Shown here in pieces: positions 2,758 through 37,491 of a stretch of DNA of 64,000 nucleotides. The stretch is from a phage. The translations under genes and the position numbers were made by a program. Below the pieces are notes generated by a model. The model saw only the letters and a program-made list of their open reading frames with translations, was not told where the DNA came from and ran no database searches. The stretch's first letter is position 1. Each line of letters starts with the position of its first letter. Where the stretch lies: sequence record NC_100371.1. One strand, given 5' to 3'.

Positions 2758-3661
2758 CTGCTCCCATTCGAATTGCGTCGTTTATGTTCGGGCAAGGTCG
2801 CTAGTCTTGCCCCGCCATTTTCAGGCAGCTGCATGTCTCCATGCAGACCAGACTATATCTTATGAATGTGCAAATACTCTGCTGCTCTAAGAATGGTTTC
2901 CTCATCCTCTTGGAAGAAACCTAAAGCTCTGTTGCATTTATCACAAAGCAACCCTCTTACAGCACCAGTTTTATGGTCATGATCAACACAAAAGAAATCT
3001 CTGTACCCTTGCGTCCTATACTCATCAAGAGATATTCTACAAATGGCACACTTATGATCTTGATCTGAGAGTAAGCGATAGTATTCATCTTTTGTTATGT
3101 GAAATTTCTTCTCAATCTGATAAAACTTTTCACACATCTTACACCTGTTCGTAACCAGATACACTTTACCATAGTCACGTTTTGTGTAAAAACTATCAGC
3201 AAGCATACTTTCATGACAAGATTTACATTCAAAAAGCTCACCTTTCTTCAGTAAGTCTTGAATAAAAGATGCTGCATCATCTCTCTTAACCATATTTTTG
3301 TTTCTACGAGATCCATTCTTCCTGTAGTACATATAGCATTCCTTGCATGTACCGGAGTATCCATCCTTGCTCTTAGATGATAAAAAGAAATCATCAAGAG
3401 GTAGAACTCTTTGGCAATCCATACATTTTTTAGTATTACACATTCACCCTCCCGTTTCGAATCGCTTGATTCTACGTCTTTCGACTAGTCGTTGAACGTT
3501 CATCCTTTCGGATGCTTCGCTGCGGATTATCTAAATTAACACACTGTTACCATACCTTCGATCTCTCTTCGAAGCCTCTATCATGTTACCATGACAGGTT
3601 GGTGGTGTCAATAATAAAGATTTCCCCGCAATTAGGGAGGTTTTACGAGAGCTACAAATTA
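2758..3661 (-). mobile_element. group I self-splicing intron with embedded homing endonuclease gene
   Basis: Minus-strand matches to group I core elements P (AATTGCGGGGAAA), Q (AATCCGCAGC), R (GTTCAACGACTA) and S (AAGATATAGTC), in canonical order, sit between the two terL ORFs. Exon 1 ends ...GAT GAG GGT followed by TAA. Boundaries are approximate. Confidence 0.7.
2853..3443 (-). CDS. intron-encoded homing endonuclease, EndoVII/HNH-like with N-terminal zinc fingers
   Basis: 196 aa; motif DHDHKTGAVRGLLCDKCN resembles T4 endonuclease VII; several CxxC pairs; GGGAGGG RBS; the stop codon overlaps the intron S element. Confidence 0.7.
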   Translation of the reverse strand: MCNTKKCMDCQRVLPLDDFFLSSKSKDGYSGTCKECYMYYRKNGSRRNKNMVKRDDAASFIQDLLKKGELFECKSCHESMLADSFYTKRDYGKVYLVTNRCKMCEKFYQIEKKFHITKDEYYRLLSDQDHKCAICRISLDEYRTQGYRDFFCVDHDHKTGAVRGLLCDKCNRALGFFQEDEETILRAAEYLHIHKI

Positions 3662-4087
3662 ACCCTCATCGAAGCAAACCATGGTGTACTCAAGTCCTTG
3701 ATGGTTAAGCTTATCTTGGACATACTCCATGTGGCAGTATTTTACAACAGCTCCTTTTTTGCTCCTGTCCCACTTGCCAGTGCTCGGATCAAACCGTGGA
3801 AAAATAAACTTATGATCCTTCTCTCTGAACTTTGGTTTAATGTTTTCAGGCAGATCACTGTAAATAGCTACTGCTTTAGGCCATAGCCCACCCTCACCTT
3901 CCAACTGTGGAGTTGTTCTTCGGAACATAACCACAGAGCTGTGTGGGTCATCAATAATTTTAAGCGGCATCAACTGCAGGAGGAACGACTTACCTGACCC
4001 AGCCGCACCACCAATGACAAGAATGTCTGCATCGTTTTCCAGGATCATCTTCTGCTTTTCAGAACACGGTCCGTAAATCTTAGACAT
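3662..4087 (-). CDS. terL: terminase large subunit, exon 1 (ATPase N-terminal part)
   Basis: Walker A GGAAGSGKS and Walker B-like VCFDE; the ORF is cut by a stop codon right after the Walker B region, where the intron begins. Confidence 0.7.
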
Positions 4088-4374
4088 TAACCTCTCTCCT
4101 TTGGAAACAGTGTTCTAATATAGTCTTGCAAAATGATCAATTTAGCCCTATCATTACTGCAAGACAGGTTATTATCCCTCATAATGCCAGAATTCACCGC
4201 ATCAGGCGCACCTTTCTTTAAAGGTATAGCTTTAGCAGGAGGCTTCATAGCACCCTCGGGAGGTTTAACAATCAACCTTCCTACATCCGGAGGGTCAATC
4301 TTGTATTCTCTCTCAACGCTGGTTGCACACCCACACAATAACAAGCACAAAACAACCAGTGCAGTAACTCTCAT
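4087..4374 (-). CDS. o-spanin (Rz1-like outer-membrane lipoprotein)
   Basis: Signal peptide with lipobox-like LLCGC, Pro-rich mature part; strong RBS CAGGAGG; start overlaps the stop of the upstream i-spanin (ATGA). Confidence 0.55.
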   Translation of the reverse strand: MRVTALVVLCLLLCGCATSVEREYKIDPPDVGRLIVKPPEGAMKPPAKAIPLKKGAPDAVNSGIMRDNNLSCSNDRAKLIILQDYIRTLFPKERG

Positions 4375-4769
4375 CGAACCTCCTGATTGATACTCTCATT
4401 ATAAATATCTATTAGCTGATCAGGAAGTGTTGACTTCTTACCTTCAGGAGATTGGAGGTAGATAATCTGCTTTTCTTTGCCTGCCTTCTCAGCCATATTT
4501 AATTTATCCTGTAGATCAGAAAGAGATTTTTCAAGGTTTTTAACCTCCTCTGCGTGGCCCATTTTAATTTTGTCGGCCTGCTTTTGTTGTTGGTCAAGGA
4601 TCCGTTCCCACTTTAACTCTGTTGCTGACACACCTTCTTGATAAGCATCATTGAGCTTAGAGTTAAACCAATACACGGCCCCAAGATAAGCCATACCTAT
4701 AGCCGCTGCAAAAACTAAACCTTTTATGATCCCTCTGTGTTTACTCATCAATGTTAAAACTGAAATCAT
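4371..4769 (-). CDS. i-spanin (Rz-like)
   Basis: N-terminal transmembrane segment followed by a charged coiled-coil-like region; GGAG RBS. Confidence 0.5.
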   Translation of the reverse strand: MISVLTLMSKHRGIIKGLVFAAAIGMAYLGAVYWFNSKLNDAYQEGVSATELKWERILDQQQKQADKIKMGHAEEVKNLEKSLSDLQDKLNMAEKAGKEKQIIYLQSPEGKKSTLPDQLIDIYNESINQEVR

Positions 4770-4786
4770 TTTTAAGGCTCCAGAAA

Positions 4787-4823
4787 CGAAAAAACCCCGC
4801 AGCTATACAGCTAACGGGGCGGG
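4787..4823 (-). terminator. rho-independent terminator
   Basis: Minus-strand hairpin CCCCG...CGGGG followed by TTTTTT. Confidence 0.5.
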
Positions 4824-4875
4824 TTAAAATTGAGTAACCTAAATAGATCGAAACTAACTAAAAGGAGACTAATAC

Positions 4876-5145
4876 TTATCGAGGCACTCGGTGGATGATT
4901 CTGACAGTAACCGCATTCTCATTCATCAAGTAAGCATCCACATCTCTGTAAATATAAAACTTCTGCTCGCTATCAACAACACAAGCTACTGCCCCTTCAG
5001 AGTTGTCTTCAAAGAAGACCACAACTGCATCGCAGCTTAGTTCATGATACGACTCTCGAAGATTTACAGCAAGAGGGTTGAAATCGTCACGAAGATCTAA
5101 AGTATGGGTTGGATTTACACGTTCTACAATTTTAAGTGTATACAT
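4876..5145 (-). CDS. hypothetical protein
   Basis: 89-aa ORF between the tRNA cluster and the terminator. Confidence 0.4.
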   Translation of the reverse strand: MYTLKIVERVNPTHTLDLRDDFNPLAVNLRESYHELSCDAVVVFFEDNSEGAVACVVDSEQKFYIYRDVDAYLMNENAVTVRIIHRVPR

Positions 5146-5191
5146 TTTAAAGGTTCCTTTTGTGTGTATATATTTAAAGTATAACTAAAGG

Positions 5192-5268
5192 TGGTCTCCA
5201 CGGAGTGATTCGAACACTCGACCTCCTGATCCCAAATCAGGCGCTCTACCAAGCTGAGCTACGCGGAG
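5192..5268 (-). tRNA. tRNA-Pro (anticodon UGG)
   Basis: Hand-folded cloverleaf: 7-bp acceptor stem, GTTCGAAT T-loop, anticodon loop TTTGGGA, encoded CCA. Confidence 0.75.
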
Positions 5269-5279
5269 TATTTATTATT

Positions 5280-5354
5280 TGGTGGCCCTGGGTGGAATTG
5301 AACCACCGTCTGGCGATTATGAGTCGCTTGCTTGAACCTTCCAGCTACAGGGCC
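5280..5354 (-). tRNA. tRNA-Met (anticodon CAU; could be initiator or Ile-lysidine type)
   Basis: Acceptor GGCCCTG/CAGGGCC, T-arm GGTGGTTCAATTCCACC, anticodon loop CTCATAA, encoded CCA. Confidence 0.7.
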
Positions 5355-5355
5355 A

Positions 5356-5431
5356 TGGTGCTGATGGCAGGACTTGAACCTGCAACCTATTGATTACAAA
5401 TCAATTGCACTGCCAATTGTGCTACATCAGC
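5356..5431 (-). tRNA. tRNA-Thr (anticodon UGU)
   Basis: Perfect 7-bp acceptor stem, D-stem GCAC/GTGC, anticodon loop TTTGTAA, T-arm GCAGGTTCAAGTCCTGC, CCA. Confidence 0.75.
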
Positions 5432-5435
5432 AAAA

Positions 5436-5534
5436 GGTGCTAGGTGATGGAATCGAACCATCTATGTATTCAACGACTACCTCGTCTATTTTCAGGATTA
5501 AAAATCCTCGCCCTTGCCAAAGGGCTTACCTAGC
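5436..5534 (-). tRNA. atypical tRNA-like gene (long variable region; anticodon not assignable by eye)
   Basis: Perfect acceptor pairing GCTAGGT/ACCTAGC and canonical T-arm GATGGTTCGATTCCATC, but about 99 nt long with an unusual anticodon-arm region (AGGAT-TTTTA-ATCCT); no complete encoded CCA. Confidence 0.4.
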
Positions 5535-5632
5535 TCAGCATGTTGACCATGTTGCTAGTCGGCGATGACGACTGTAACATTTGATAATCCGGTTCTGCTT
5601 CCGGCTTTCGCTTAATTACAAGGTCAACAATA

Positions 5633-5723
5633 TGGCAGAGGATAATGGAATCGAACCATCATCGAGTCATCCTCAACGGGACGGTTTTCAAGACCGCTTG
5701 AGCACCATTGCTCCCTACCCTCT
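5633..5723 (-). tRNA. tRNA-Ser (anticodon UGA), type II
   Basis: Acceptor AGAGGGT/ATCCTCT, anticodon loop CTTGAAA, long variable arm, T-arm GATGGTTCGATTCCATT, CCA. Confidence 0.7.
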
Positions 5724-5837
5724 TTTATAAACAATACTGATAATGACACTGATTTTCGAGCAGTTAGTGACTAGTATAAACGACGATAAATATCAATGCC
5801 ATTATCTGTATGATTTATGCATTTAAAAATATAAATT

Positions 5838-5925
5838 TGGTGGTGAGTGATGGAGTCGAACCACCCGAATCGCAATGATAACAGATTTACAGTCTGCCCC
5901 GCTACCCCTACGGAATTAACTCACC
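5838..5925 (-). tRNA. tRNA-Tyr (anticodon GUA), type II
   Basis: Acceptor GGTGAGT/ACTCACC, anticodon loop CTGTAAA, long variable arm, CCA. Confidence 0.7.
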
Positions 5926-6055
5926 TAAATACTAATATTTAAATTCTTTTTAAAATAGCTAGTGTTCTAACCACTAACTATGAGGTATCGGTAAAGTGGT
6001 TACCGCCACTTGCCGAAGATTTACTCTGCTAAAGTAAGCTACATTAAAAAGAACT

Positions 6056-6130
6056 TGGCACCCCGTACTGGACTCGAACCAGTGTCAACGGCTTAGAAGG
6101 CCGCTGCTTTATCCACTAAGCTAACAGGGC
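6056..6130 (-). tRNA. tRNA-Arg (anticodon UCU)
   Basis: Acceptor GCCCTGT/ACGGGGT, anticodon loop CTTCTAA, T-arm ACTGGTTCGAGTCCAGT, CCA. Confidence 0.75.
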
Positions 6131-6188
6131 ACTGGGTGGCTTTCTTTTACACCTGAGCCGCCAGAAAAGGTGGGAGACCATGTTTATA

Positions 6189-6217
6189 ATATTACACTGT
6201 TAGGCAAAGTTTGTCAA
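6189..6217 (-). promoter_or_regulatory. sigma70-like promoter for the tRNA cluster
   Basis: Minus strand TTGACA-N17-TAATAT, about 55 nt upstream of tRNA-Arg. Confidence 0.55.
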
Positions 6218-6226
6218 GAAAATATT

Positions 6227-6565
6227 TTAACTATTGCCAACAGGCTGTATTTCTGTGGTAAATGGCATAAAAGGTGCTGGTTTTTCAGCCTCTTCCACTA
6301 CCACCTCTTCCTCTTCACCAAACATCTCATCATATTCTTCCTGCATTCTGTCTGCCTTATCAAGAACATACTCTGCAATGCTTTGACGAATATTTTGTTT
6401 GGTTTTCGGGTCCAACATCAGCTCTCTTAAAACTTTGTGAGCTTCTGGAACCATCGCTATAAAAGATTCCTTCATATCAAGAATGTTCTTCTCTAGCTGA
6501 ATGGCGTTGGACTCCTCTTTCAGAGGTCTGCCTCTACGGCGACGCTTTTTAGTTGTATCCGCCAT
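6227..6565 (-). CDS. hypothetical protein (basic N-terminus, acidic C-terminus)
   Basis: ATG at 6565 preceded by GGAGGAAAC RBS; the 152-aa track ORF is probably an over-extension. Confidence 0.5.
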   Translation of the reverse strand: MADTTKKRRRRGRPLKEESNAIQLEKNILDMKESFIAMVPEAHKVLRELMLDPKTKQNIRQSIAEYVLDKADRMQEEYDEMFGEEEEVVVEEAEKPAPFMPFTTEIQPVGNS

Positions 6566-6593
6566 GTTTCCTCCATTATCACGTGATAGGTGG

Positions 6594-6622
6594 ATTTTAT
6601 CACGGCAAATACTGATTGTCAA
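6594..6622 (-). promoter_or_regulatory. sigma70-like promoter
   Basis: Minus strand TTGACA-N17-TAAAAT just upstream of the 6565 start. Confidence 0.5.
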
Positions 6623-6910
6623 GTTCGCCGCAGGGTGGTATTCCCTGCGACTTGCCCAGCGTCCTGGACCAGCAAGACCCAACAAGTGGGTTACCAGATA
6701 CCCATTACCGCGCTCTGGCTCGACCTTATTACAGGTTGGCTGGGGTCACATCGTCATGTGCTGGCTGCCCCTACCATTTTAAGTGTGGTGCACTATCAAG
6801 CCCTCTAAGGGGAACTCAGCCTTCTCCGAACCCTGTTTCAAAGCATCCGGAGATAAAGCCATCAAACTCATCTTTAAATTGGATATTCATCATGATACAC
6901 GAAAACAACC

Positions 6911-7153
6911 TCATTGTAAAGCACAAATAAATAAAACATACTTAATTTGTTTGTTATCAGGCTCAGGGTAGAAGTAGAAGATCTTGCTATCACCGATCTG
7001 AACACCACCATCCCAACAGCATAACCCATAACCAGTATTCATACAAGCTAAGTCGTTGGCAAAATCTATTGCATCATCTAGTGCACGAAATTCACCTTCA
7101 TCTTCTAAATAATCCTCATTCATGGAACGGAAAACGAGCTTAACCTTAAACAT
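6911..7153 (-). CDS. hypothetical protein
   Basis: 80-aa ORF in a same-strand gene array. Confidence 0.4.
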   Translation of the reverse strand: MFKVKLVFRSMNEDYLEDEGEFRALDDAIDFANDLACMNTGYGLCCWDGGVQIGDSKIFYFYPEPDNKQIKYVLFICALQ

Positions 7154-7229
7154 AGCATTACCTGTAGACCTCGTAAGTTAAAATTGTATCACATCATATT
7201 GCAGATCTTATCAGGTAACATTATTTTTG

Positions 7230-7418
7230 TCAACAGATTCCGGCCTTATCCCTCCTGTCTGCGTATTCTTTAATCGCAACCTCACCTGCATTGGTAACCA
7301 GATCTTCAAAGTAATTCTCAAGCTCCTCGTCAATGTCCGGTGACCAGCTCTTTTTCCTGTCAGTGTGAATTGCAGACTTGTTGAACTTATTACAATTCTT
7401 TGCTACCGGATTGTTCAT
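7230..7418 (-). CDS. hypothetical protein
   Basis: 62-aa ORF. Confidence 0.35.
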   Translation of the reverse strand: MNNPVAKNCNKFNKSAIHTDRKKSWSPDIDEELENYFEDLVTNAGEVAIKEYADRRDKAGIC

Positions 7419-7428
7419 TAAGCTCTCC

Positions 7429-8007
7429 TCAACGTTCGTAGTAAATCTTATTCAACATTACCTCATCGTTTGCAGAAAGGATATCAAGATATGCATCACC
7501 AAATCTGCCTGCAACAACCTCTGCATGATACATCACTTCGTTAACATCGTCAAGAGTGATAACCGGATGACCATATCTTTCTGAATATTGTCTCAGTGTG
7601 CGATGTAACGAGTCGTCATCATATGCAGACTTTTTAATATCACAAACACGACGAATGGCCTTGATGTCGAAAAAACCTGTGCGATACCACCCAAGAAAAA
7701 AGTTCCGTGTAGTGTCAACATCTACATCAATACCATTAAGAACCTTATCTACAAGATAGCTGTCATCCTTTGGACTAGCGTCCTTAGTGCGAATGTAGTT
7801 GCCATCTTTTCCAGGTGATAGCTCCTTCTCATCACCAACCTGCATGCCATCATTTGGCGGTGTTAGCCACTTATCAGGATGCTTACGATCACGAGCGTTA
7901 GAATGATTACGCTGGAAACCTGGCTTCCACTTGAAAGTTTTCTCCATCTGTTCTTCATTCTGATAACGTTTTGCAATCTTTTCACTGGCATCTTTGCGTG
8001 AACTCAT
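7429..8007 (-). CDS. hypothetical protein
   Basis: 192-aa ORF; GAGGAG-type RBS upstream. Confidence 0.5.
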   Translation of the reverse strand: MSSRKDASEKIAKRYQNEEQMEKTFKWKPGFQRNHSNARDRKHPDKWLTPPNDGMQVGDEKELSPGKDGNYIRTKDASPKDDSYLVDKVLNGIDVDVDTTRNFFLGWYRTGFFDIKAIRRVCDIKKSAYDDDSLHRTLRQYSERYGHPVITLDDVNEVMYHAEVVAGRFGDAYLDILSANDEVMLNKIYYER

Positions 8008-8510
8008 AGCAGACTCCTCTTCAAGTTATAGAAAAACTCACTGTATCGCTTTGTAACGAGCTTTTCTATCAAACTGGTGCGATTGCCTTACTTGGTATAG
8101 TTTATATAGCTGTGGAGCGATTTAGGGGCCTTCTTGTCAGTTTCCACACATAAACTTTATCCGAACTCGCGCGGGAGGCTCTCAACCGACTCCTTCCGGC
8201 GCTGGCAAGCTTTCGTCGGTGGTCCACATTAGTGCTCGGCCTTTGGCCTGCGCTATCGCTTCGCTCCCACACATGTTAACAGTCCTGCATGTATGCACTT
8301 CTGTTATTGTGTGCACTATGGAGGCCCGGCATCTCGCCCCTCGTAGGCGAGTGCCAATGAAGGGCCGACACTACCCATAATAAGTAATAAATTTAAAACA
8401 TGGTACTTAGGATCTAGTATATTCTACATAAGTTAAGTATATGTACTTTAGTACCATAAGTACTAGATCTTTTATTTTTTATTATTTAGTTATTTTAGTT
8501 ATATTCTTTA

Positions 8511-8594
8511 TGTGTCCGTATCACGGACAGTTAGTGTCCGTATTACGGGCAGATGTGTCCGCGTGACGGACAGTAGTGTCCGTATCACGGACAG
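8511..8594. promoter_or_regulatory. array of four tandem palindromic operator-like sites
   Basis: Four ~21-bp units with consensus GTGTCCGTATCACGGACAG (inverted half-sites TGTCCGT / ACGGACA) at 8511-8530, 8532-8552, 8553-8573 and 8574-8594, inside a 660-bp intergenic region. Confidence 0.6.
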
Positions 8595-8668
8595 TTACTA
8601 ACCTCTGTTCCAGAGTGAACATAAAACATACAAATCCTTATAGTACAGATGTTTAAGTTTTTACTGGT

Positions 8669-9019
8669 CTAACCAGTTGTTGACATTCGAATAACTTCTT
8701 CTGGTGGCAAAACTTTGGAAAATGTGCATCTTTTACCTCTCCCTTGTGTGGATATTTCAACCACTCCTGCACATTCTAAAGTTTTAACGCACGCTGCTGC
8801 TTTTGTTTTCTTTATCCCAACATCTGCTGCAATTTTCCTGGTGCTGGGTGTGAAGCGTGAATTTTCTCCAAGCTTATACCAGTTGTGCAGGTAGCAGTAT
8901 ACGATCTTGTCATATAAGTCAAGAACAATAACCTCCCCAGTTGTGCCATTCAAAACTTTTGACATAGACAGTATTTCAAGGGGGACTTTAAGATATAGCA
9001 GCTTATCCCCATCTTTCAT
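8669..9019 (-). CDS. hypothetical protein, possible helix-turn-helix DNA-binding protein
   Basis: 116 aa; segment RKIAADVGIKKTKAAACVKTLECAGVV looks HTH-like; lies next to the operator array. Confidence 0.4.
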   Translation of the reverse strand: MKDGDKLLYLKVPLEILSMSKVLNGTTGEVIVLDLYDKIVYCYLHNWYKLGENSRFTPSTRKIAADVGIKKTKAAACVKTLECAGVVEISTQGRGKRCTFSKVLPPEEVIRMSTTG

Positions 9020-9066
9020 ATCTCCTGATTCTCCTTGTGTGGCAATTTTCTTTAAAATAGCAGGGA

Positions 9067-9621
9067 TTACTCCCCGCTGTCAATAGCAAGACTCATTGCA
9101 ATACGGTATGCCTCTTCTAATGGTAAGAGTCTCCCCCACACATCCCAACCGACATCAAACTGCCTGCCAAACAACTGCTGTGTGGTTCCGTGAGCATGAC
9201 CGAACAGTTGGACTGATCCGTGAGGCTTTCTGTTCCACTTTGCAAACTGGTAATGGCTCATACAGATCAAATTCTTGTTGTGGCGAAGCTCGTAATAATC
9301 TACAACCTCATGACCGAACTCTTTCATAATTCTGACAGTCGTCCTTGTGTCATGGTTACCACGAACAAGAATAATATGTCCGTTCAACATATTTAGAACA
9401 TCTGGAAGCAATTTGTTGATATTCTTATCATTAGTGCACGCAATATCCCCCAAGTGAAACACAGTGTCTGCAGGTGACACAACAGAGTTCCACTTGGTGA
9501 TGATTCCCGCATTCATACTGTCAAGATTGTGATCATACTGAGATCTGTGTTTTTGACATGAGTCGAACTCCATTACCCGCTGGTGGAGAAAGTGTGTGTC
9601 GCTTGTTACAAAGTATTTCAT
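9067..9621 (-). CDS. calcineurin-like metallophosphoesterase
   Basis: MKYFVTSDTHF...GDIACTNDK...VRGNHDT motifs. Confidence 0.6.
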   Translation of the reverse strand: MKYFVTSDTHFLHQRVMEFDSCQKHRSQYDHNLDSMNAGIITKWNSVVSPADTVFHLGDIACTNDKNINKLLPDVLNMLNGHIILVRGNHDTRTTVRIMKEFGHEVVDYYELRHNKNLICMSHYQFAKWNRKPHGSVQLFGHAHGTTQQLFGRQFDVGWDVWGRLLPLEEAYRIAMSLAIDSGE

Positions 9622-9628
9622 ACATTCC

Positions 9629-10039
9629 TCATTTAAGTTTAATGCAGTTTTTAAGCTGGCGTTCCATACGATCCACAACCCTGTCTGGAACATCATGAAT
9701 GCTTTTATTACCATGGCGGTTTTCAACCACGATCACGGTATAACTATATCCATGACTGATCGCCATGTCAATATATTCTTGCACATATTTTTCTTTTGTA
9801 AACGTATTACTTACCACGATACGGTCGTAGCCCATACGCATCATATCTTCTACGTTATCTTTGCACCATTTTGCTGCAAGTGTTACTTTACTTGCATCCC
9901 AATTGTAATTGCCGTCATCGTCGTACCAGAACATATCGTTCTCAAAATGTGGATACAGACCTTCTAAAGATAGCGCATTTGCCAGTGTTGATTTGCCAGA
10001 CCCTGGTAGACCACGCACGATATATAGCATTTTAGACAT
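9629..10039 (-). CDS. P-loop kinase, polynucleotide-kinase-like
   Basis: ATG at 10039 with GGAGAG RBS; Walker A GLPGSGKST; about 136 aa. Confidence 0.55.
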   Translation of the reverse strand: MSKMLYIVRGLPGSGKSTLANALSLEGLYPHFENDMFWYDDDGNYNWDASKVTLAAKWCKDNVEDMMRMGYDRIVVSNTFTKEKYVQEYIDMAISHGYSYTVIVVENRHGNKSIHDVPDRVVDRMERQLKNCIKLK

Positions 10040-10139
10040 AGTAACTCTCCGTTTTAATTTTAATGATAGTATACCTAACTGTTTTGTTAATTTCAAGTGT
10101 TGACACCAGGTTATTTGTGTGGCAGAATAAAGGGACAAA

Positions 10140-11075
10140 ATGACAAATGAGGAATGTATGATGAAGTATTTTAATGCAGACGACCTGGTTGACAAAGGTC
10201 TTGTAACCAGCAGATATTACCCAGATCTTGGATTAAAGATCTACAAATATGCCAGAAAAGTATTCTACAACAATTTATGGCATTTGTCTCCGCGTTTACT
10301 AGAGTGCCGAGGCATTGTTGTCGGTAATGAAGGAAATGTTGTGGCATGGCCCTTCACAAAAGTGTTTAATTTGGGAGAAAACTCCACCAACCTGCCTGAC
10401 AATAAACTTGTGACGGCGGTAGAGAAAAAGAACGGATTCCTTGGTGTGGTATCATCTCATAAAGGTGAACTATTGTTTTCAACAACCGGGTCTCTTGATT
10501 CTCCATATTGTAACCTTGCAAAGGAAACCATCCAGGAGCAATGTGGTAATTTAGATCTTATCAAGAAGGTTATGGGCCATGAAAACATGACATTCATGTT
10601 TGAAATTTGTCACCCTTCAGATCCGCATATTGTTCAGGAAGATCATGGCGCATATTTGATAGGTTGCAGATATAATGATTCTGGAATAATGCTACCAGAA
10701 GCAGCTTTAGATGGGATTGCCAAATACCTTGGTGCAAAACGTCCTCACACTGTGCGTGAAATTCCGTTCAGCTATGCAAAAGAATTAGCTGCAGAAACAA
10801 GGGGTGAAGGGTATATGATCCGTAAGCCTTACTACCCTTATGACCTGCAACTAAAGATCAAGTCTCCCTACTATCTGGCACGGAAGGCCGTAATGAGGTG
10901 TAGAGCTTGGAAGATTTGGGATGATGATATCTTTAAACGTGTTGACGAAGAGTTTTACGGCATGGTAAACTTCATTCGTAGGAACTACACAGAAGATGTG
11001 TGGAATTGCCTCCTGGAGCAGGAACGCCGTGAGATACTTGACTGCTATTTCCACAACGAGGACTATATGCAATGA
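10140..11075 (+). CDS. RNA ligase, T4 Rnl1 (RnlA)-like
   Basis: Blocks LLECRGIVV, KVFNLGEN, EKKNGFLGVV and FSTTGSLDS parallel T4 Rnl1 ECRGIMF / KFFNLNEN / KEDGSLVS / FKSKGSIKS, including the nucleotidyl-transferase lysine. Confidence 0.6.
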   Translation: MTNEECMMKYFNADDLVDKGLVTSRYYPDLGLKIYKYARKVFYNNLWHLSPRLLECRGIVVGNEGNVVAWPFTKVFNLGENSTNLPDNKLVTAVEKKNGFLGVVSSHKGELLFSTTGSLDSPYCNLAKETIQEQCGNLDLIKKVMGHENMTFMFEICHPSDPHIVQEDHGAYLIGCRYNDSGIMLPEAALDGIAKYLGAKRPHTVREIPFSYAKELAAETRGEGYMIRKPYYPYDLQLKIKSPYYLARKAVMRCRAWKIWDDDIFKRVDEEFYGMVNFIRRNYTEDVWNCLLEQERREILDCYFHNEDYMQ

Positions 11076-11422
11076 AGAAGTTGATTGTGTGGCTTGATGA
11101 TTTTAGAGATCCGTCAGATTATGGACTACCAGACGCTCTGTGGCTGAAGAATTCTTCTGAGTTTATGGATTTTCTTAATGATAAGAGAAAGCTCTACAGA
11201 CGCGTATCTGAGTGGTATTTTGACAATGATCTAGGGGAAGTGCTTGAAGGGTACGACTGCTTCTCTGCGCTAGAGGAGAAACTTGTATTCGGAAAGCCAC
11301 CACTTATTGACAACGTGATTATTTTCGTGCATACTTCTAATCCATCGGCAGCTCGTAAATTTATGCTTGCTGCTGACTCATTCAAGAAGTTTGGAATAGA
11401 GATCAAACAAAACATCTACTAA
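11072..11422 (+). CDS. hypothetical protein
   Basis: 116 aa; ATGA overlap with the RNA ligase stop. Confidence 0.45.
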   Translation: MKKLIVWLDDFRDPSDYGLPDALWLKNSSEFMDFLNDKRKLYRRVSEWYFDNDLGEVLEGYDCFSALEEKLVFGKPPLIDNVIIFVHTSNPSAARKFMLAADSFKKFGIEIKQNIY

Positions 11423-11430
11423 GGACATTT

Positions 11431-12192
11431 ATGCGACGACTTATTGTTATTTCTGGTGCTGGCTTGAGCGCAGAATCTGGGATCCCAACTTTTCGTTCTG
11501 GTCAAACTGCAATGTGGGAGAATTTCAGCATCGATGAGGTGTGTAACATCCACACCTTTGCCAAGAACTACTATAAGGTGCATGACTTTTACAATGCACG
11601 GCGTGTAGCTCTGGGCAGTGTTGATCCTAACCTTGCACATCTCCGGATCGCTGAGTGGTATTCACGTTGGTCTGGTCGTGTGATCAACCTGACAACCAAT
11701 GTAGATGATTTGCTGGAGCGTGCTGGTGTTAAACATGAAGATATCTTACATGTCCACGGGTATTTGCCTGAAATCACCTACGAAGATGCTGAAGGTAATG
11801 ATGTAATTAAAAATATCGGATACACGGAGGTAGATACAGGCAAGTATACTTGGGTTAAGCCCAATGTGGTGTTCTTCGGTGAGGTTGCTCCTAAGTATAC
11901 AGACATGTATGACCTATTGACATCTCTTACCAGCAATGATATGGTGATCCTGGTGGGTTGTTCTAACACAGTTATTAATTTTAACTGGGAATTGTTTCCT
12001 GCTACTTGTAAAGGCACAAAACTACTGATTGTAAACAAGTATGATTCGCAGAGTGCAGATGGAAGCGGCATTTCACGTAGCGACCTTTATCAATATGAGG
12101 ATCGCGGGATCCCGGTTTGGTTTAACGGGGCGGTTGATGCTTTCTCTGATAAAACATTCATTGAGACCGTAGAAAACTTTATGGAACTTTAA
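11431..12192 (+). CDS. Sir2-family (sirtuin-like) NAD-dependent protein
   Basis: GAGLSAESGIPTFR, TNVDDL and VHG motifs; no obvious zinc-ribbon cysteines. Confidence 0.55.
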   Translation: MRRLIVISGAGLSAESGIPTFRSGQTAMWENFSIDEVCNIHTFAKNYYKVHDFYNARRVALGSVDPNLAHLRIAEWYSRWSGRVINLTTNVDDLLERAGVKHEDILHVHGYLPEITYEDAEGNDVIKNIGYTEVDTGKYTWVKPNVVFFGEVAPKYTDMYDLLTSLTSNDMVILVGCSNTVINFNWELFPATCKGTKLLIVNKYDSQSADGSGISRSDLYQYEDRGIPVWFNGAVDAFSDKTFIETVENFMEL

Positions 12193-12205
12193 AAGGAGAC
12201 CTTTA

Positions 12206-12919
12206 ATGCTGAATACCAAATTAATTGACAACCTGGAAAAACTGTCCCAGCCTGAAAACTACCTTTGGTCTGCCAACTGGGTGGAAAACTGGAACCGTGT
12301 AGCAGCTAAAGTGAAAAAATCATACACACCATTCGAACTTCAGCTGAGTTTCATTGAGGAAGAGTTCAATGAGGTTTTGGAAGAGTTGGAGAAAGGTGAT
12401 GGTGGGGATCATCTCCTAAAAGAGGCCTGCGATCTTCATGTTGTCACAAGTTATGCCGCTTATCTTGTTAACGATAACCATGAAAAGTGGTCAAACCTGT
12501 TTGATAATCCGCGAGGTCTTAAGTTTAAGATCGGTGAATTTTATGATACACTGATCGCTGCGAAAAATACCTCTAAGCAAAGAGCGTCTGCTTACCGCTT
12601 AGCAGAGTTGTCAACAGCTTTGCTGTTCCAGCTTCGCGGTGATGTGTGCGGGATGATGCGGAAGGTTCTAAAATCTAATGACAGCAAGTTTGCACGCGTC
12701 AACCATCTGCGGTATTCACACGGTGCCAGTGCAGATATGCCTGCTGAACAACTCATCGAGTTGGAGATTAAAGATCTTGAGCGACGCTTTGATGGTCGCT
12801 ATGAAGGTTTTGTTGCTAAAGAAGAATTCTACAACGGAAATAAAGTTATCATATTCCTTGACAGTAAAGGTAAGATTATGAAGCCTTCAAGCTTCAAAGA
12901 TGTAACAGAATATATTTAA
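12206..12919 (+). CDS. possible MazG-like all-alpha NTP pyrophosphohydrolase
   Basis: EEEFNEVLEELEKGD ... KEACDLHVV resembles the EExxE...ExxD metal-binding pattern; weak call. Confidence 0.35.
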   Translation: MLNTKLIDNLEKLSQPENYLWSANWVENWNRVAAKVKKSYTPFELQLSFIEEEFNEVLEELEKGDGGDHLLKEACDLHVVTSYAAYLVNDNHEKWSNLFDNPRGLKFKIGEFYDTLIAAKNTSKQRASAYRLAELSTALLFQLRGDVCGMMRKVLKSNDSKFARVNHLRYSHGASADMPAEQLIELEIKDLERRFDGRYEGFVAKEEFYNGNKVIIFLDSKGKIMKPSSFKDVTEYI

Positions 12920-12925
12920 TAACAT

Positions 12926-12952
12926 AGCCGGGGCGATCCCGGCTTTACTTGT
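12926..12952 (+). terminator. rho-independent terminator
   Basis: GCCGGGG-CGAT-CCCGGC hairpin followed by a T-rich tail. Confidence 0.5.
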
Positions 12953-12983
12953 TTCGGAAAGTATGCAAGTGAGGTAGAAAGTT

Positions 12984-13292
12984 ATGTACAAGCACTCCAG
13001 AGATCTTGAAAACGATGATGTGTTTGGGGATCAGATGAAAGAATTGGTTAAACTTATAGGTAGGATAGAGGATAAGTTTGACACTAAGATCTACATCGAC
13101 AGTAAAGTATTCAACCACAAAATATGGACAAATCTGTGTGTTGGACTGCATGGAGATAAAGATGTGGTAAATTTGGTTGTAATTAAGTTCATAGTGTGGC
13201 AGAATAAAACTATAAATTATTACGATCCACACCCACTTGTTTACCCGATAAAAGACCTATTAGAGAAGGAGGACTGCAATGCAGTTATTTAA
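12984..13292 (+). CDS. hypothetical protein
   Basis: 102 aa; GAGGTAGAAAG RBS. Confidence 0.45.
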   Translation: MYKHSRDLENDDVFGDQMKELVKLIGRIEDKFDTKIYIDSKVFNHKIWTNLCVGLHGDKDVVNLVVIKFIVWQNKTINYYDPHPLVYPIKDLLEKEDCNAVI

Positions 13293-13548
13293 TCTTGCTA
13301 AACCTGTAGAAGCACACCAGTTTGACGGAAGCTCTTCATCAGTATCTGATCTGCAACGGTGGATTGATACAGGTGTGTTTACACCGTCACCTGTTCGGAC
13401 CAGAGATATTCTTCGCATGTGTGAGCTTGTCGAGCCGTTTGGTAACCTGGTCTTGTACCAAGGGGATTGGTTAGTTGACTTTATGGGAGACTGGTTGGTA
13501 ATTAGCAAAGAAGAGATGTTTAAAATTTTTAAGGAAGAGGCTGAGTAA
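13279..13548 (+). CDS. hypothetical protein
   Basis: 89 aa; AGAAGGAGGA RBS. Confidence 0.45.
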   Translation: MQLFNLAKPVEAHQFDGSSSSVSDLQRWIDTGVFTPSPVRTRDILRMCELVEPFGNLVLYQGDWLVDFMGDWLVISKEEMFKIFKEEAE

Positions 13549-14831
13549 TGCATCAGATCAAAACAACACTGTACGCACTGAACAAAGATGGCAGCTACCA
13601 ACAGTGGAAAGTATTCACGGATGGTGATAAGGTTATCGTAGAGTTTGGCAAGCTTGATGGTAAACTGCAATACAAAGAGACGATCTGCACACCTAAGAAC
13701 GTGGGTCGTGCCAATGAAACTACAGCTGAGCAACAGGCTGAGCTGGAAGCGATCAGTAAGTGGGAAAAACAAGTCCGTCTGGGGTATGTTGAAAATATGG
13801 AAGATTGCGAGCAGGGTGTTGACCTTTTACCCATGTTGGTGCATGACTACCTGAAGCGTGGAAAGGCACTTAAATTACCTTGCTGGATTTTGCGTAAGTT
13901 AGATGGCCTTCGTCTACTGGTTGTTTTCCAAAACGGTGAGCCTAAATTTATTTCCCGTGGTAATAAGTCCTACCCTATTCAAGGAAAGCTTCTGGAGCAA
14001 CTTCGTTCTTTCCACTTCACCACCGGGATTAAACAGCTCGACGGAGAGATCTATATTCATGGTCTGCCTCTGCAGAAAATAGTGTCTCTTGCTAAACGGT
14101 GGCGCACACAGGAAGAGATTCAGGCCGAGATCGATAAAGACTACGAGGCAGATAAAAAACGCCGTCATGCCGCAATTAAGGCAGGCTTATCAACATACAA
14201 AAACTTCAATAAGGTAGATATTCCTGTTGATGTTGAGCCTGTTCGTGATGATTTGCGTTACGGAGGGTACTGTAGCTATGACTTAGAGTATCATATTTTC
14301 GACATCCCTAGTGACAAGGTATGGTGGGATCCAGAAACAGAATCTGGACGATGCAAGGATCTTATGGATGCAGAAGATACCATTACCACCCTGATGCTTG
14401 ACCATATCAAGGTTGTTGACGCAGAGCTTGCGTACACAGTTGATCATTGCGAAGAATCTGTTGGTGTATTCATGTCCGAAGGATATGAAGGTACTATCAT
14501 GCGTAACTTCTGTGGTAAATATGAATATGGTCAGCGAACATCTGAAGCATTGAAATGGAAAAAGTTCAACGATGCTGAGGTGAAAGTTATTGACGTTGAG
14601 AAAGATAAGAATGATGAAGGTGTTCTTATCTGCGTTGACAAGGAAGGTATCGTTGTTAAAATGAAGATGAAAGGCACGCACGAGGAGCGTAGCTATGACA
14701 GGATGCAGGAAATGATCGGCAAGTTTATCACCTTCAAATATCAAGCAAGGACAGAAGACAACAACTACCAATTCCCTGTCGGCATCTGCGTCCGAAATGT
14801 TAACCCTGACACTTGGGAGGTTCTGGAATGA
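13548..14831 (+). CDS. ATP-dependent DNA ligase
   Basis: 427 aa; nucleotidyl-transferase motif I KLDGLR (KxDG). Confidence 0.6.
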   Translation: MHQIKTTLYALNKDGSYQQWKVFTDGDKVIVEFGKLDGKLQYKETICTPKNVGRANETTAEQQAELEAISKWEKQVRLGYVENMEDCEQGVDLLPMLVHDYLKRGKALKLPCWILRKLDGLRLLVVFQNGEPKFISRGNKSYPIQGKLLEQLRSFHFTTGIKQLDGEIYIHGLPLQKIVSLAKRWRTQEEIQAEIDKDYEADKKRRHAAIKAGLSTYKNFNKVDIPVDVEPVRDDLRYGGYCSYDLEYHIFDIPSDKVWWDPETESGRCKDLMDAEDTITTLMLDHIKVVDAELAYTVDHCEESVGVFMSEGYEGTIMRNFCGKYEYGQRTSEALKWKKFNDAEVKVIDVEKDKNDEGVLICVDKEGIVVKMKMKGTHEERSYDRMQEMIGKFITFKYQARTEDNNYQFPVGICVRNVNPDTWEVLE

Positions 14832-14955
14832 TGTAGGAATGTTTAGTAGATAATGGTAGCCAATTGAATGATGGTTTTTCAATTGGCACCTACATAACCA
14901 CATTATGCAGTGTTGTTGATCTGGTTAGTTATGAGTAAACTGGAGAGTATGAAAA

Positions 14956-15426
14956 ATGAAACTTGATAAAAATGTTCAACGAAAAGCTTTCTTGGATATG
15001 ATCGCATATTCAGAAGGTACAGATAATGGTAGACAACCTACCAAGGATCGGGGCTATGATGTCATAGTCGGTGGCAAGCTGTTTAGCGATTACAGTAAGC
15101 ATCCAGGTGTTTACGTTAAGCTAAATGCTAAACTTACCTCCTCTGCTGCTGGGCGTTACCAGATTTTGGAGAAGTTTGCTAAACACTATATGGAACAGTT
15201 AGGATTACCAGATTTTGGCCCTGCCAGTCAGGACAAGATTGCATTGCAACTGATCCGTGAGTGTAAGGCTCTCACTGACATTGACGAAGGTCGCATCCAC
15301 GAAGCTATCCGCAAATGCCGTTCCCGCTGGGCTTCGTTACCCGGTGCCGGATACGGTCAGCATGAACAGAAGATTGAGAAGTTGATCGAGGTGTTTAAAA
15401 AGGCAGGCGGCATTGTCCTAGATTAA
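14956..15426 (+). CDS. endolysin, lambda R-type lytic transglycosylase
   Basis: Near-collinear with lambda R: QRKAFLDMIAYSEGTDNGRQ...YDVIVGG...AGRYQ...WASLPGAGYGQ. Confidence 0.8.
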   Translation: MKLDKNVQRKAFLDMIAYSEGTDNGRQPTKDRGYDVIVGGKLFSDYSKHPGVYVKLNAKLTSSAAGRYQILEKFAKHYMEQLGLPDFGPASQDKIALQLIRECKALTDIDEGRIHEAIRKCRSRWASLPGAGYGQHEQKIEKLIEVFKKAGGIVLD

Positions 15427-15489
15427 TCATTGACATGACCACATGGACGTGGTATTGTTACCTAGTAAAATGTTAAGAAGGGTTTAACC

Positions 15490-15696
15490 ATGAAAGATTT
15501 TCTGTTGGCAATTTTGTTCATGGCAGCATGTCTGGCCTGTGGTGTCGTGTTTGCAGGTGAAACAGCGTATCTTGTCGATGTATATCGGGACAATGGTAAA
15601 CGTATTTGCCTTTATGAAACAAGCCAAGGTGAGCTCTACGAGCTTGTTAAACAAGGCGAGGCTGGATCTTGTCCTCGGACTCACTTCTTCGAATAA
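15490..15696 (+). CDS. small secreted or membrane protein (possible lysis accessory)
   Basis: 68 aa with N-terminal hydrophobic signal-like segment; AAGAAGGG RBS; directly after the endolysin. Confidence 0.45.
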   Translation: MKDFLLAILFMAACLACGVVFAGETAYLVDVYRDNGKRICLYETSQGELYELVKQGEAGSCPRTHFFE

Positions 15697-37254: not shown

Positions 37255-37491
37255 ATGAGTATAGATGCTGTGCTGATAGGTTACCTGGTAGTAGCTGTTA
37301 TAACAGCAGTAATCTTGGCAGGTATATGCATCGTGTCTACACGAAGGGTGAAGTTTGATGATTTTATCACCATCATCACTGCTGCGCCCTTTTGGCCTGT
37401 TGTTATCTTCATCGTAATAATGTGCCTAGTTGATTACCACAAGAATATCCGTAAGGAGAAAAAGGAGAGTAGGGATGGATACCGCACCTAA
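37255..37491 (+). CDS. small membrane protein
   Basis: Two hydrophobic segments; AAGGAGGAG RBS. Confidence 0.5.
   Translation: MSIDAVLIGYLVVAVITAVILAGICIVSTRRVKFDDFITIITAAPFWPVVIFIVIMCLVDYHKNIRKEKKESRDGYRT

What the first reader, a model, noticed from the sequence alone, without database searches (positions are those of the whole stretch)
4087..15696. Lysis functions are dispersed; no holin identified
A lambda R-type endolysin (14956-15426) and a small signal-peptide protein (15490-15696) sit in the plus-strand early block, while the Rz/Rz1-like spanin pair (4087-4769) is about 10 kb away on the other strand next to terL. I found no clear class I/II holin by hydrophobicity. The several short hydrophobic peptides (51303-51437, 52041-52145, 54377-54496, 44885-45025) are possible holin or antiholin candidates.
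Basis: partly seen in the sequence, partly recalled or inferred. Interest (0 to 1): 0.45.

Follow-up and report, generated by a model that had tools for sequence, protein, structure and literature searches.

The report
Scattered lysis genes of an rV5-like phage

Summary
The window is about 97% identical to Vequintavirus (rV5-like) myophage genomes.

**Confirmed at the stated coordinates**
- A soluble lambda-R-type endolysin lies at 14956-15426.
- A 68-residue protein with a cleavable signal peptide lies at 15490-15696.
- An inner/outer-membrane spanin pair lies at 4087-4769. It is translationally coupled to terL and about 10 kb from the endolysin on the other strand.

**Corrections**
- The spanin genes overlap by only 4 bp. 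This is the T4-like "separated" layout, not the embedded lambda Rz/Rz1 layout.
- "No class I/II holin" is wrong. ORF 37255-37491 encodes 78 residues with two strong transmembrane helices and a Lys/Arg-rich tail. It is the ortholog of rV5 gp129, which was proposed as the holin in 2013.
- The 68-residue protein is a secreted mini-protein. Its relatives in other genera have no endolysin next to them.

**Still open**
No holin has been proven for this phage group, and several genome papers say so. gp129 lies in a hypervariable three-gene island and matches no known holin family. Other conserved membrane proteins lie outside the window.

**Verdict:** real, ordinary, already known.

The parts
14956..15426 (+). 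Soluble lambda-R-type endolysin (rV5 gp89 ortholog)
   Evidence: phrog_90 at E 7.6e-56. PDB 1am7 lambda lysozyme at E 4e-56, with the catalytic-Glu motif AYSEGTDNG aligned to lambda's AWSEGTDNG. No hydrophobic or SAR segment. The near-identical LysECP26 was purified and shown to be active (PMC9728275).
15490..15696 (+). 68-aa secreted mini-protein: signal peptide plus a 45-aa mature beta-sheet domain with two invariant Cys. Function unknown; not a holin.
   Evidence: phrog_4641, unknown function. Alignments A1 and A4 show a variable signal peptide and an invariant mature part with C40 and C61. Relatives carry clear AXA-type cleavage sites. AlphaFold model has pLDDT 82, four strands after an N-terminal helix. 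Orthologs in SSBI34 and PVP-SE1 have no adjacent endolysin.
15430..15458 (+). Sigma-70-like promoter match between the endolysin and the 68-aa gene (consensus match only)
   Evidence: TTGACA-17-TATTGT with an upstream TG.
4371..4769 (-). i-spanin (rV5 gp67 ortholog): N-terminal transmembrane helix plus a charged helical periplasmic domain
   Evidence: phrog_4297 at E 1.4e-48, with weaker hits to two other Rz-like PHROGs. One transmembrane segment near residues 14-32. PVP-SE1 ortholog at E 2.5e-14.
4087..4374 (-). o-spanin (rV5 gp66 ortholog): outer-membrane lipoprotein
   Evidence: phrog_1267 at E 4.3e-22. Lipobox LLCG|C16 passes the PS51257-type rule; Ala at +2; 9 Pro in the 80-aa mature part; one further Cys at 72. 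PVP-SE1 ortholog at E 2.1e-18.
4789..4820 (-). Terminator-like hairpin plus U6 immediately upstream of the i-spanin start
   Evidence: RNA fold -16.9 kcal/mol, z -3.4, none of 200 shuffles as stable. Sequence.
3659..4087 (-). terL exon 1; its start overlaps the o-spanin stop, so i-spanin, o-spanin and terL form one coupled unit
   Evidence: ORF coordinates. tblastn of NHEP1 TerL: residues 1-142 align at 4087-3662 with 100% identity.
37255..37491 (+). 78-aa two-helix membrane protein, ortholog of rV5 gp129; the leading but unproven class II-type holin candidate
   Evidence: Transmembrane segments near residues 5-27 and 38-59; tail DYHKNIRKEKKESRDGYRT with 7 basic and 4 acidic residues. Strong AAGGAGG ribosome-binding site. 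85.9% identical to rV5 ORF129, called 'putative holin' in PMC3606486. Found in 115 phage records. Syntenic remote orthologs exist. No hit to holin families in Pfam, PHROGs or NCBIfam.
44885..45025 (+).
   Evidence: phrog_16755, unknown function. Acidic C-terminus. No PVP-SE1 homolog.
51303..51437 (-).
   Evidence: phrog_16005, unknown function. No charged tail. No PVP-SE1 homolog.
52041..52145 (-).
   Evidence: phrog_14631, unknown function, matching residues 13-46 of the longer ORF 52041-52181. No charged tail.
54377..54496 (-).
   Evidence: Hydrophobic segment only. No PVP-SE1 homolog.

Best explanation
The window carries the standard lysis gene set of a Vequintavirus (rV5-like myophage). 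The genes are scattered through the genome as in T4, not grouped in a lambda-style cassette.

**Inferred lysis pathway**
1. A soluble lambda-R-type transglycosylase (14956-15426) accumulates in the cytoplasm.
2. A small inner-membrane hole-former releases it. The most likely candidate is the 78-aa two-helix protein at 37255-37491 (rV5 gp129 ortholog).
3. After the cell wall is degraded, the i-spanin/o-spanin complex (4371-4769 and 4087-4374) disrupts the outer membrane. These genes are co-translated with terL in the structural-gene operon.

**Other points**
- The 68-aa gene next to the endolysin encodes a secreted periplasmic mini-protein. It is not the holin.
- The identities of the endolysin and the spanins are shown. 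The holin assignment, the timing and the membrane topology are inferred.
- The confidence given (0.8) is for the overall picture: an ordinary, already described Vequintavirus lysis gene set with gp129 as the leading but unproven candidate. My probability that gp129 is the main holin is about 0.45.
For: **Identity of the phage**
- 97% nucleotide identity over 13 kb to Vequintavirus genomes, with matching annotation.

**Endolysin and spanins**
- Endolysin. Ortholog activity is reported in PMC9728275.
- Spanins. The family is listed in PMC6139136. They are coupled to terL.

**gp129 ortholog**
- It has two strongly hydrophobic segments, a basic tail and a strong ribosome-binding site.
- It is present in 115 phage records, essentially every Vequintavirus genome.
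- Helix 2 and the preceding loop (KFDDFITIITAAPFWPVV) are invariant, while helix 1 varies.
- An exhaustive profile search found three remote relatives of 72-75 aa with the same architecture. The two looked up sit in the same PhoH-ClpP-...-151-aa-protein context.
- The best hit of the profile among 1942 PVP-SE1 ORFs is the two-helix gp161, downstream of ClpP (E 0.001).

**Literature**
- The rV5 paper proposed gp129 as the holin.
- The CB7 paper described the spanins sitting next to terL and the lack of a cassette.
Against: **Against gp129 as the holin**
- No candidate matches any holin family in Pfam, PHROGs or NCBIfam.
- gp129 lies 22 kb from the endolysin, among unknown genes downstream of nucleotide-metabolism and ClpP genes.
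- It lies inside a three-gene hypervariable island. gp128, gp129 and gp130 are 52%, 59% and 67% identical to FV3, against 92-100% for the flanking genes. That pattern is also typical of exclusion or host-interaction genes.
- It has no dual-start motif.
- Careful annotators left it as 'hypothetical' and stated that the holin was not identified. This holds for LL12, for Murica and Mangalyan from the CPT group, for the BASEL phages and for Gotham.
- The PVP-SE1 link is weak (E 0.001) and could partly reflect transmembrane composition.

**Against the model as a whole**
- There are no expression data, so 'late' timing is unverified.
Confidence: 0.8

Rival explanations
1. The real holin is a different small membrane protein encoded outside the window in the late tail-fibre block. 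The main candidate is the gp31-like protein: 104 aa with an N-terminal transmembrane helix and an 80-aa coiled coil. It sits just after the tail-fibre assembly gene, much as T4 holin t follows gene 38. It might work together with the gp29-like protein (88 aa).
For: - Apart from the spanins and the signal-peptide proteins (the 68-aa protein and SleB), these are the only small membrane proteins of the Vequintavirus set with homologs in PVP-SE1 (E 7.7e-19 and 6.3e-30).
- They occur in 223 and 373 phage records, spanning all Vequintavirinae genera and beyond.
- They sit in a structural (presumably late) operon.
- In CB7 the flanking proteins are confirmed in virions by mass spectrometry, but these membrane proteins are not.
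- The parallel with the position of T4 t comes from my own knowledge of the T4 map.
Against: - Neither is ever annotated as a holin, and neither hits a holin family.
- The gp29-like gene is embedded between the tail protein and the baseplate wedge genes in a Pseudomonas phage, and next to tail fibres in an Aeromonas phage. That points to a tail-assembly role.
- The hydrophobic segments of gp29 are weak, and the TMHMM and Phobius scan in the rV5 paper recorded no TMD for it.
Confidence: 0.2
2. One of the other small membrane ORFs in the window is the holin or an antiholin. These include the reader's four mini-peptides, the 123-aa two-helix protein at 54716-55120, and the N-terminally anchored proteins at 44593-44856, 57010-57363 and 60129-60458.
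For: - All have at least one strongly hydrophobic segment on the coding strand.
- Six of the seven scanned against PHROGs fall in recurrent phage families.
- Holins are very diverse, so lack of homology is weak evidence against them.
Against: - None has the combination of two helices plus a basic tail.
- The mini-peptides are 34-46 aa with neutral or acidic ends.
- None has a homolog in PVP-SE1.
- None is next to a lysis gene.
- They sit in a block of very many tiny ORFs, typical of host-takeover regions.
Confidence: 0.15
3. The 68-aa protein next to the endolysin is the holin or an RI-type antiholin, so endolysin plus 68-aa gene is a minimal cassette.
For: - It lies immediately downstream of the endolysin, with a 63-bp gap.
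- Its N-terminal hydrophobic stretch is the strongest in that region (mean 2.74).
- It is at least 95% identical across almost all Vequintavirus records.
Against: - The hydrophobic stretch is a variable, cleavable signal peptide. Relatives show typical AHA|G, AFA|T and AWS|G cleavage sites.
- The conserved part is a 45-aa beta-sheet domain with one probable disulfide.
- Orthologs in SSBI34 and PVP-SE1 occupy the same ligase-to-exonuclease interval with no endolysin nearby.
- gp129 has almost no periplasmic surface for an RI-type partner to bind.
- There is no homology to RI or to any known fold.
Confidence: 0.05
4. Lysis does not depend on a canonical large-hole holin. The Sec-exported SleB-like hydrolase, encoded outside the window beside rIIA/rIIB, does the wall degradation. 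It would be released or activated by membrane depolarisation, and the lambda-R-type enzyme would be accessory.
For: - Relatives encode a 166-aa Hydrolase_2/SleB protein with a typical signal peptide directly upstream of rIIA-rIIB.
- It is conserved in PVP-SE1 (E 7e-57) and in CB7, whereas the cytoplasmic endolysin type and its position differ between genera.
- In CB7 a two-helix 65-aa protein follows SleB.
Against: - The lambda-R-type enzyme lies in a block that is well conserved across the genus, and its ortholog is an active lysin.
- A soluble cytoplasmic endolysin with no export signal implies a hole-former.
- In this genus SleB has no adjacent small membrane gene.
- All of this lies outside the window and was not examined further.
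Confidence: 0.07

Closest known systems
Escherichia phage rV5 lysis genes (gp89 lysin, gp66/gp67 spanins, gp129 putative holin; Kropinski et al. 2013, PMC3606486) and close relatives NHEP1, ECP32, LL12 and Murica
   Same: Same genes in the same order. Nucleotide identity is 94-97% in the 3.5-16.5 kb region. The gp129 ortholog is 86% identical to the rV5 protein and 100% identical to the ECP32 protein. terL is likewise interrupted by an intron carrying a homing endonuclease.
   Different: Only allelic differences. The window carries a rarer allele of the gp128-gp130 island. NHEP1 lacks the terL insertion.
Phage T4 lysis system (e, t, pseT.2/pseT.3, rI, rIIA/B), with dispersed lysis genes
   Same: Endolysin, holin and spanin genes are unlinked. 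The spanin genes are of the separated type. rIIA/rIIB homologs are present in the genome outside the window.
   Different: The endolysin is lambda-R-type, not T4 E-type. No homolog of holin T or antiholin RI was found. The candidate holin has two helices and almost no periplasmic domain.
Phage lambda S-R-Rz/Rz1 cassette
   Same: The endolysin is a clear homolog of lambda R. A close ortholog is reported as about 62% identical, and the PDB match is E 4e-56. The three-step logic of holin, endolysin and spanin is the same.
   Different: There is no cassette. The spanin genes are not embedded. The candidate holin has two helices, not three, lacks a dual start and has no similarity to S.
Certrevirus CB7 proposal: CB7_82, a 65-aa two-helix protein downstream of SleB, as class II holin (PMC7344957)
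   Same: Same subfamily and same problem: spanins beside terL, no cassette, and a two-helix small protein nominated on topology alone.
   Different: The CB7 candidate sits next to SleB. In Vequintavirus that position is occupied by rIIA/rIIB. I did not test whether CB7_82 is related to gp129.

Membership tests
Lambda R-type endolysin (lytic transglycosylase fold of PDB 1am7) | Full-length sequence homology to lambda R | tested here: met
   phmmer E 4.3e-56, residues 4-154 aligned to 3-153 of 1am7.
Lambda R-type endolysin (lytic transglycosylase fold of PDB 1am7) | Catalytic glutamate in the SEGT motif | tested here: met
   AYSEGTDNG in the window aligns with AWSEGTDNG of lambda R. Glu20 is named as catalytic for rV5-like enzymes in PMC9728275.
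Lambda R-type endolysin (lytic transglycosylase fold of PDB 1am7) | Soluble cytoplasmic form with no signal or SAR segment, hence dependent on a holin | tested here: met
   Maximum 19-residue hydropathy is 0.42 and there is no lipobox.
Lambda R-type endolysin (lytic transglycosylase fold of PDB 1am7) | Peptidoglycan-degrading activity, and transglycosylase rather than hydrolase chemistry | not testable with these tools
   Lytic activity is reported for the ortholog LysECP26. The reaction chemistry was not determined there.
Two-component spanin (i-spanin plus o-spanin) | i-spanin: N-terminal transmembrane anchor with a mostly helical, charged periplasmic domain | tested here: met
   One transmembrane segment near residues 14-32. 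phrog_4297, phrog_8821 and phrog_6197, all 'Rz-like spanin'.
Two-component spanin (i-spanin plus o-spanin) | o-spanin: lipoprotein signal with lipobox Cys, no Asp at +2, and a short proline-rich mature part | tested here: met
   LLCG|C16 passes the PS51257-type rule; +2 is Ala; 9 Pro in 80 residues. phrog_1267.
Two-component spanin (i-spanin plus o-spanin) | Adjacent genes in the order i then o | tested here: met
   4371-4769 then 4087-4374 on the minus strand, with a 4-bp overlap.
Lambda Rz/Rz1 embedded architecture | o-spanin gene lies wholly inside the i-spanin gene in another reading frame | tested here: not met
   Only 4 bp are shared. Overlaps of about 8 bp or less count as 'separated' in PMC6139136.
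Class II holin (for ORF 37255-37491) | Small protein (about 60-100 aa) with two transmembrane helices | tested here: met
   78 aa, with segments of mean hydropathy 2.79 and 2.51. TMHMM and Phobius agreed on two helices for rV5 gp129.
Class II holin (for ORF 37255-37491) | Hydrophilic, highly charged, net-basic C-terminal tail | tested here: met
   A 19-residue tail with 7 K/R and 4 D/E. The charged character is kept in all relatives.
Class II holin (for ORF 37255-37491) | Homology to a described holin family | tested here: not met
   No holin hits in Pfam, PHROGs or NCBIfam. Only family-internal relatives in 5.8 billion and 1.8 billion protein searches.
Class II holin (for ORF 37255-37491) | Genetic linkage to an endolysin or spanin gene | tested here: not met
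   It lies 22 kb from the endolysin and 33 kb from the spanins. Its neighbours are of unknown function. Linkage is common but not obligatory; T4 lacks it.
Class II holin (for ORF 37255-37491) | Dual-start motif encoding a holin/antiholin pair | tested here: not met
   There is a single Met at the N-terminus, MSIDAVL.... This feature is optional.
Class II holin (for ORF 37255-37491) | Late expression and timed, energy-poison-triggerable lethal hole formation that releases the endolysin | not testable with these tools
   No transcriptome or functional study was found.
T4 RI-type antiholin or T-type holin (for the 68-aa protein) | Homology to RI or T, or a membrane-retained N-terminal anchor with a holin-binding periplasmic domain | tested here: not met
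   No family hit. The N-terminus behaves as a cleavable signal peptide across relatives. The fold search gave nothing below E 0.06.

The most novel reading that the evidence does not exclude
The true holin of the Vequintavirinae may be none of the classical types. It could be one of the subfamily-wide conserved membrane proteins encoded in the late tail-fibre operon outside this window. The main candidate is the gp31-like protein, a type-II anchored coiled-coil protein that follows the tail-fibre assembly gene much as T4 t follows gene 38. In that case the gp129 'FWP' two-helix family, inside its hypervariable island, would be a membrane-acting exclusion or host-interaction factor instead of a holin.
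Probability: 0.15. Interest if true: 0.45.

Novelty: already known. Interest (0 to 1): 0.15.

Why it matters
As it stands the finding adds nothing to what is published for rV5-like phages.

The dispersed layout and the unidentified holin are stated in the rV5, LL12, Gotham, CB7, KPP-1 and BME3 papers. A candidate, gp129, was proposed in 2013.

The residual value is practical. Vequintaviruses are widely used in E. coli O157 biocontrol and in phage-therapy cocktails, and their lysis timing gene has never been shown experimentally.

This analysis narrows the candidates:
- The 68-aa protein beside the endolysin is very unlikely to be the holin.
- gp129 belongs to a syntenic, fast-evolving two-helix family with an invariant FWP helix.
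- A few conserved late membrane proteins outside the window remain as alternatives.

A handful of expression and knockout experiments would settle the question.

Tried and rejected
- **Family scans.** Pfam, PHROGs and NCBIfam scans of candidate membrane proteins found no holin family.
- **Late-promoter motif.** I searched for the T4-late-like motif reported for rV5 (TGGTAAAATA, up to 1 mismatch). There were 16 matches against 7.7 expected. None lies in front of the endolysin, the 68-aa gene, the gp129 ortholog or the spanins. Temporal class could not be inferred.
- **Sigma-70 scans.** These give only consensus matches.
- **Expression literature.** A search for transcriptomes of this subfamily found nothing.
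- **Structure of the 68-aa protein.** AlphaFold gave a confident small beta-sheet. Foldseek against the PDB gave no match below E 0.06, only generic small beta-barrels. No function could be assigned.
- **Lipoprotein idea for the 68-aa protein.** Rejected. Its only lipobox-like match puts the Cys at position 14, outside the rule, and relatives lack that Cys.
- **gp29-like protein as holin.** Largely rejected, because it is embedded among baseplate and tail genes in distant phages.
- **Hidden holin ORF.** I looked beside the endolysin and the spanins. The 124-bp gap upstream of the endolysin has no ORF. The 89-aa ORF upstream of the spanins (4876-5145) has no hydrophobic segment.
- **Rfam scan.** It found only tRNAs and no group I intron model for the terL insertion.

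Full report
**What the window is**

A 13-kb query spanning the finding matched 729 phage records. It is about 97% identical over 96-99% of its length to Vequintavirus genomes such as NHEP1, ECP32 and ECP2303. The annotated regions of NHEP1 and navn show the same gene order. The window is therefore roughly half of an rV5-like myophage genome of about 137 kb.

**Check of the observation: endolysin and its neighbour**

- ORF 14956-15426(+) encodes a 156-residue protein. It hits phrog_90 (endolysin) at E 7.6e-56 and lambda lysozyme 1am7 at E 4e-56 over almost its whole length. The catalytic SEGT motif is conserved.
- This protein has no hydrophobic segment. It is therefore a soluble cytoplasmic enzyme that needs a membrane hole to reach the wall.
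- A near-identical enzyme, LysECP26, has been purified and shown to lyse Gram-negative cells (PMC9728275).
- ORF 15490-15696(+) encodes 68 residues with a strongly hydrophobic N-terminus.

**Check of the observation: spanins**

- ORFs 4371-4769(-) and 4087-4374(-) hit Rz-like spanin PHROGs at E 1.4e-48 and 4.3e-22.
- The first has one N-terminal transmembrane segment.
- The second passes a PROSITE-type lipobox rule (LLCG|C16, Ala at +2) and is proline-rich.
- The i-spanin stop overlaps the o-spanin start by 4 bp, and the o-spanin stop overlaps the terL start. The three genes therefore form one coupled unit.
- A terminator-like hairpin precedes this unit (-16.9 kcal/mol, z -3.4, followed by U6).
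- The pair lies 10.2 kb from the endolysin on the opposite strand.

The descriptive part of the finding is correct.

A hydropathy scan of all ORFs shows a 78-residue ORF at 37255-37491(+). Its features are:

- two strongly hydrophobic segments (19-residue means 2.79 and 2.51);
- a four-residue N-terminus;
- a short RRVKFDD loop;
- a tail, DYHKNIRKEKKESRDGYRT, with seven basic and four acidic residues;
- a canonical AAGGAGG ribosome-binding site.

This is the textbook outline of a class II holin. The ORF is 85.9% identical to rV5 ORF129. The rV5 genome paper singled out ORF129 as the only protein that both TMHMM and Phobius gave two helices. [quoted passage not shown] So 'no clear class I/II holin by hydrophobicity' does not hold.

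**The 68-residue neighbour of the endolysin is not a holin**

- Alignment of its relatives shows a variable N-terminal hydrophobic stretch ending in typical signal-peptidase sites. After it comes an almost invariant 45-residue domain with two invariant cysteines.
- AlphaFold predicts a helix followed by a four-stranded sheet (pLDDT 82).
- Orthologs in Salmonella phages SSBI34 and PVP-SE1 (35-36% identity) lie in the same interval between DNA ligase and the HNH/exonuclease genes. No endolysin is nearby in either phage.
- The lambda-R-type gene has no homolog in PVP-SE1. That phage's endolysin (gp146) sits elsewhere, before phoH.

Adjacency in Vequintavirus therefore looks like the result of where an endolysin gene landed, not a functional cassette. 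The function of the mini-protein remains unknown. A PDB fold search gave nothing significant.

**How good is the gp129 candidate? Points in favour**

- It is found in 115 phage records, essentially every Vequintavirus genome.
- Helix 2 and the preceding loop are invariant, including an FWP motif, while helix 1 varies.
- An exhaustive profile search of 1.8 billion proteins found three remote relatives of 72-75 residues with the same architecture.
- The two that could be looked up sit in the same PhoH-ClpP-...-151-residue-protein context in divergent phage contigs.
- The profile's best hit among 1942 PVP-SE1 ORFs is the two-helix gp161, which also carries FWP and lies downstream of ClpP (E 0.001).

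A fast-evolving gene that is retained in position fits an essential membrane function.

**How good is the gp129 candidate? Points against**

- It matches no holin family in Pfam, PHROGs or NCBIfam.
- It is unlinked to any lysis gene.
- It has no dual-start motif.
- It lies in a three-gene island (gp128, gp129, gp130) that is 52%, 59% and 67% identical to phage FV3, while the flanking genes are 92-100% identical. That pattern is equally typical of exclusion or host-interaction genes.
- Expert annotators did not adopt the assignment. [quoted passage not shown] Gotham, KPP-1 and BME3 report the same gap or only topology-based guesses. Murica, Mangalyan and the BASEL phages leave the gene 'hypothetical'.

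I put the probability that gp129 is the main holin at about 0.45.

**Alternatives outside the window**

The rest of the NHEP1 genome was fetched and scanned.

- It encodes a second wall hydrolase. This is a 166-residue SleB/Hydrolase_2 protein with a Sec signal peptide, directly upstream of rIIA-rIIB. It is conserved in PVP-SE1 and CB7.
- It also encodes two membrane proteins in the tail-fibre block: gp29-like (phrog_1322) and gp31-like (phrog_5345). The gp31-like protein has an N-terminal helix followed by a coiled coil.
- Apart from the spanins and the signal-peptide proteins (the 68-residue protein and SleB), these two are the only small membrane proteins of the Vequintavirus set with clear homologs in PVP-SE1.
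- They occur throughout the subfamily and beyond.
- In CB7 their equivalents are not among the virion proteins confirmed by mass spectrometry, although their neighbours are.
- The gp31-like gene follows the tail-fibre assembly gene, reminiscent of T4 t after gene 38 (my own knowledge of the T4 map).
- Against a lysis role: the gp29-like gene is embedded between tail and baseplate genes in distant phages. This suggests a tail-assembly function. Neither protein is ever annotated as a holin.

They are 34-46 residues long, each with one hydrophobic stretch and a neutral or acidic end. The three that were scanned fall only in unknown-function PHROGs. None has a PVP-SE1 counterpart. Nothing distinguishes them from the many other tiny ORFs in that block.

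**Comparison with known systems, and verdict**

- The layout works like T4: unlinked endolysin, holin and separated spanins, with rIIA/B present.
- The endolysin is lambda-R-type, and there are no T or RI homologs.
- The spanins belong to the published 'rv5' family.
- Their position beside terL, and the lack of a cassette in rV5, PVP-SE1 and CB7, are described in PMC7344957.

Everything in the finding is real, but it is already documented. Its one interpretive claim, that no holin candidate exists, is contradicted both by the sequence and by the 2013 paper. The only open point is experimental: no holin has been demonstrated for any member of this subfamily.

Noticed in passing
window 1657-4087 (-), insertion 2779-3661: terL is split. 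Residues 1-142 align at 4087-3662 and residues 143-515 at 2778-1660, both 100% identical to the uninterrupted NHEP1 TerL. The 883-bp insertion carries a 196-aa HNH/EndoVII-like ORF (2853-3443). This fits the intron reported for rV5 and LL12 terL. No Rfam group I intron model reached threshold.
   Followed up: partly
window 36700-37603 (+): This is a hypervariable three-gene island: gp128-like (174 aa, soluble, unknown function), gp129-like (two helices) and gp130-like (about 43-50 aa). Against phage FV3 they are 52%, 59% and 67% identical, while flanking genes are 92-100% identical. About 400 bp cannot be aligned at the DNA level.
   Followed up: partly
NHEP1 record 88719-89219 (L004 16720-17220, -), outside the window: A second peptidoglycan hydrolase: SleB/Hydrolase_2, 166 aa, with a Sec signal peptide. 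Its stop overlaps the start of rIIA-rIIB. It is conserved next to rIIA in PVP-SE1. In CB7 it sits next to a two-helix 65-aa gene.
   Followed up: partly
NHEP1 record 107658-107924 and 109068-109382 (L004 35659-35925 and 37069-37383, -), outside the window: Two small membrane proteins in the tail-fibre block (phrog_1322 and phrog_5345). They are conserved across all Vequintavirinae genera, and phrog_1322 also occurs in phi92-like, Aeromonas and Pseudomonas phages. Seunavirus and Certrevirus add a four-helix protein between them. Function unknown.
   Followed up: partly
window 5436-5534 (-): An odd tRNA-like gene sits in the tRNA cluster. ARAGORN calls it with a four-base anticodon (atcc) and no assigned amino acid. 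The Rfam tRNA score is only 37.5 bits. The navn record annotates a 'tRNA-OTHER' (98 nt) in its tRNA cluster, apparently the same position.
   Followed up: no
window 51440-51724 (-): A 94-aa protein with a classic signal peptide (MKKMIAVVALVVGLNAPVMA|KE) and two Cys in the mature part. It falls in phrog_9845, unknown function. It is another secreted small protein in the block of tiny ORFs.
   Followed up: no
window 54716-55120 (-): A 123-aa protein (counting from the internal Met) with two strong transmembrane helices and a 70-aa soluble C-terminal domain. It falls in phrog_13090, unknown function. It is the only other two-helix protein on the coding strand of the window.
   Followed up: no
phage collection records MG0656xx: About 20 GenBank records named 'Campylobacter phage' (host C. 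jejuni) are 95-100% identical to this E. coli Vequintavirus in every gene tested. This suggests coliphage carry-over or mislabelled hosts in that data set.
   Followed up: no
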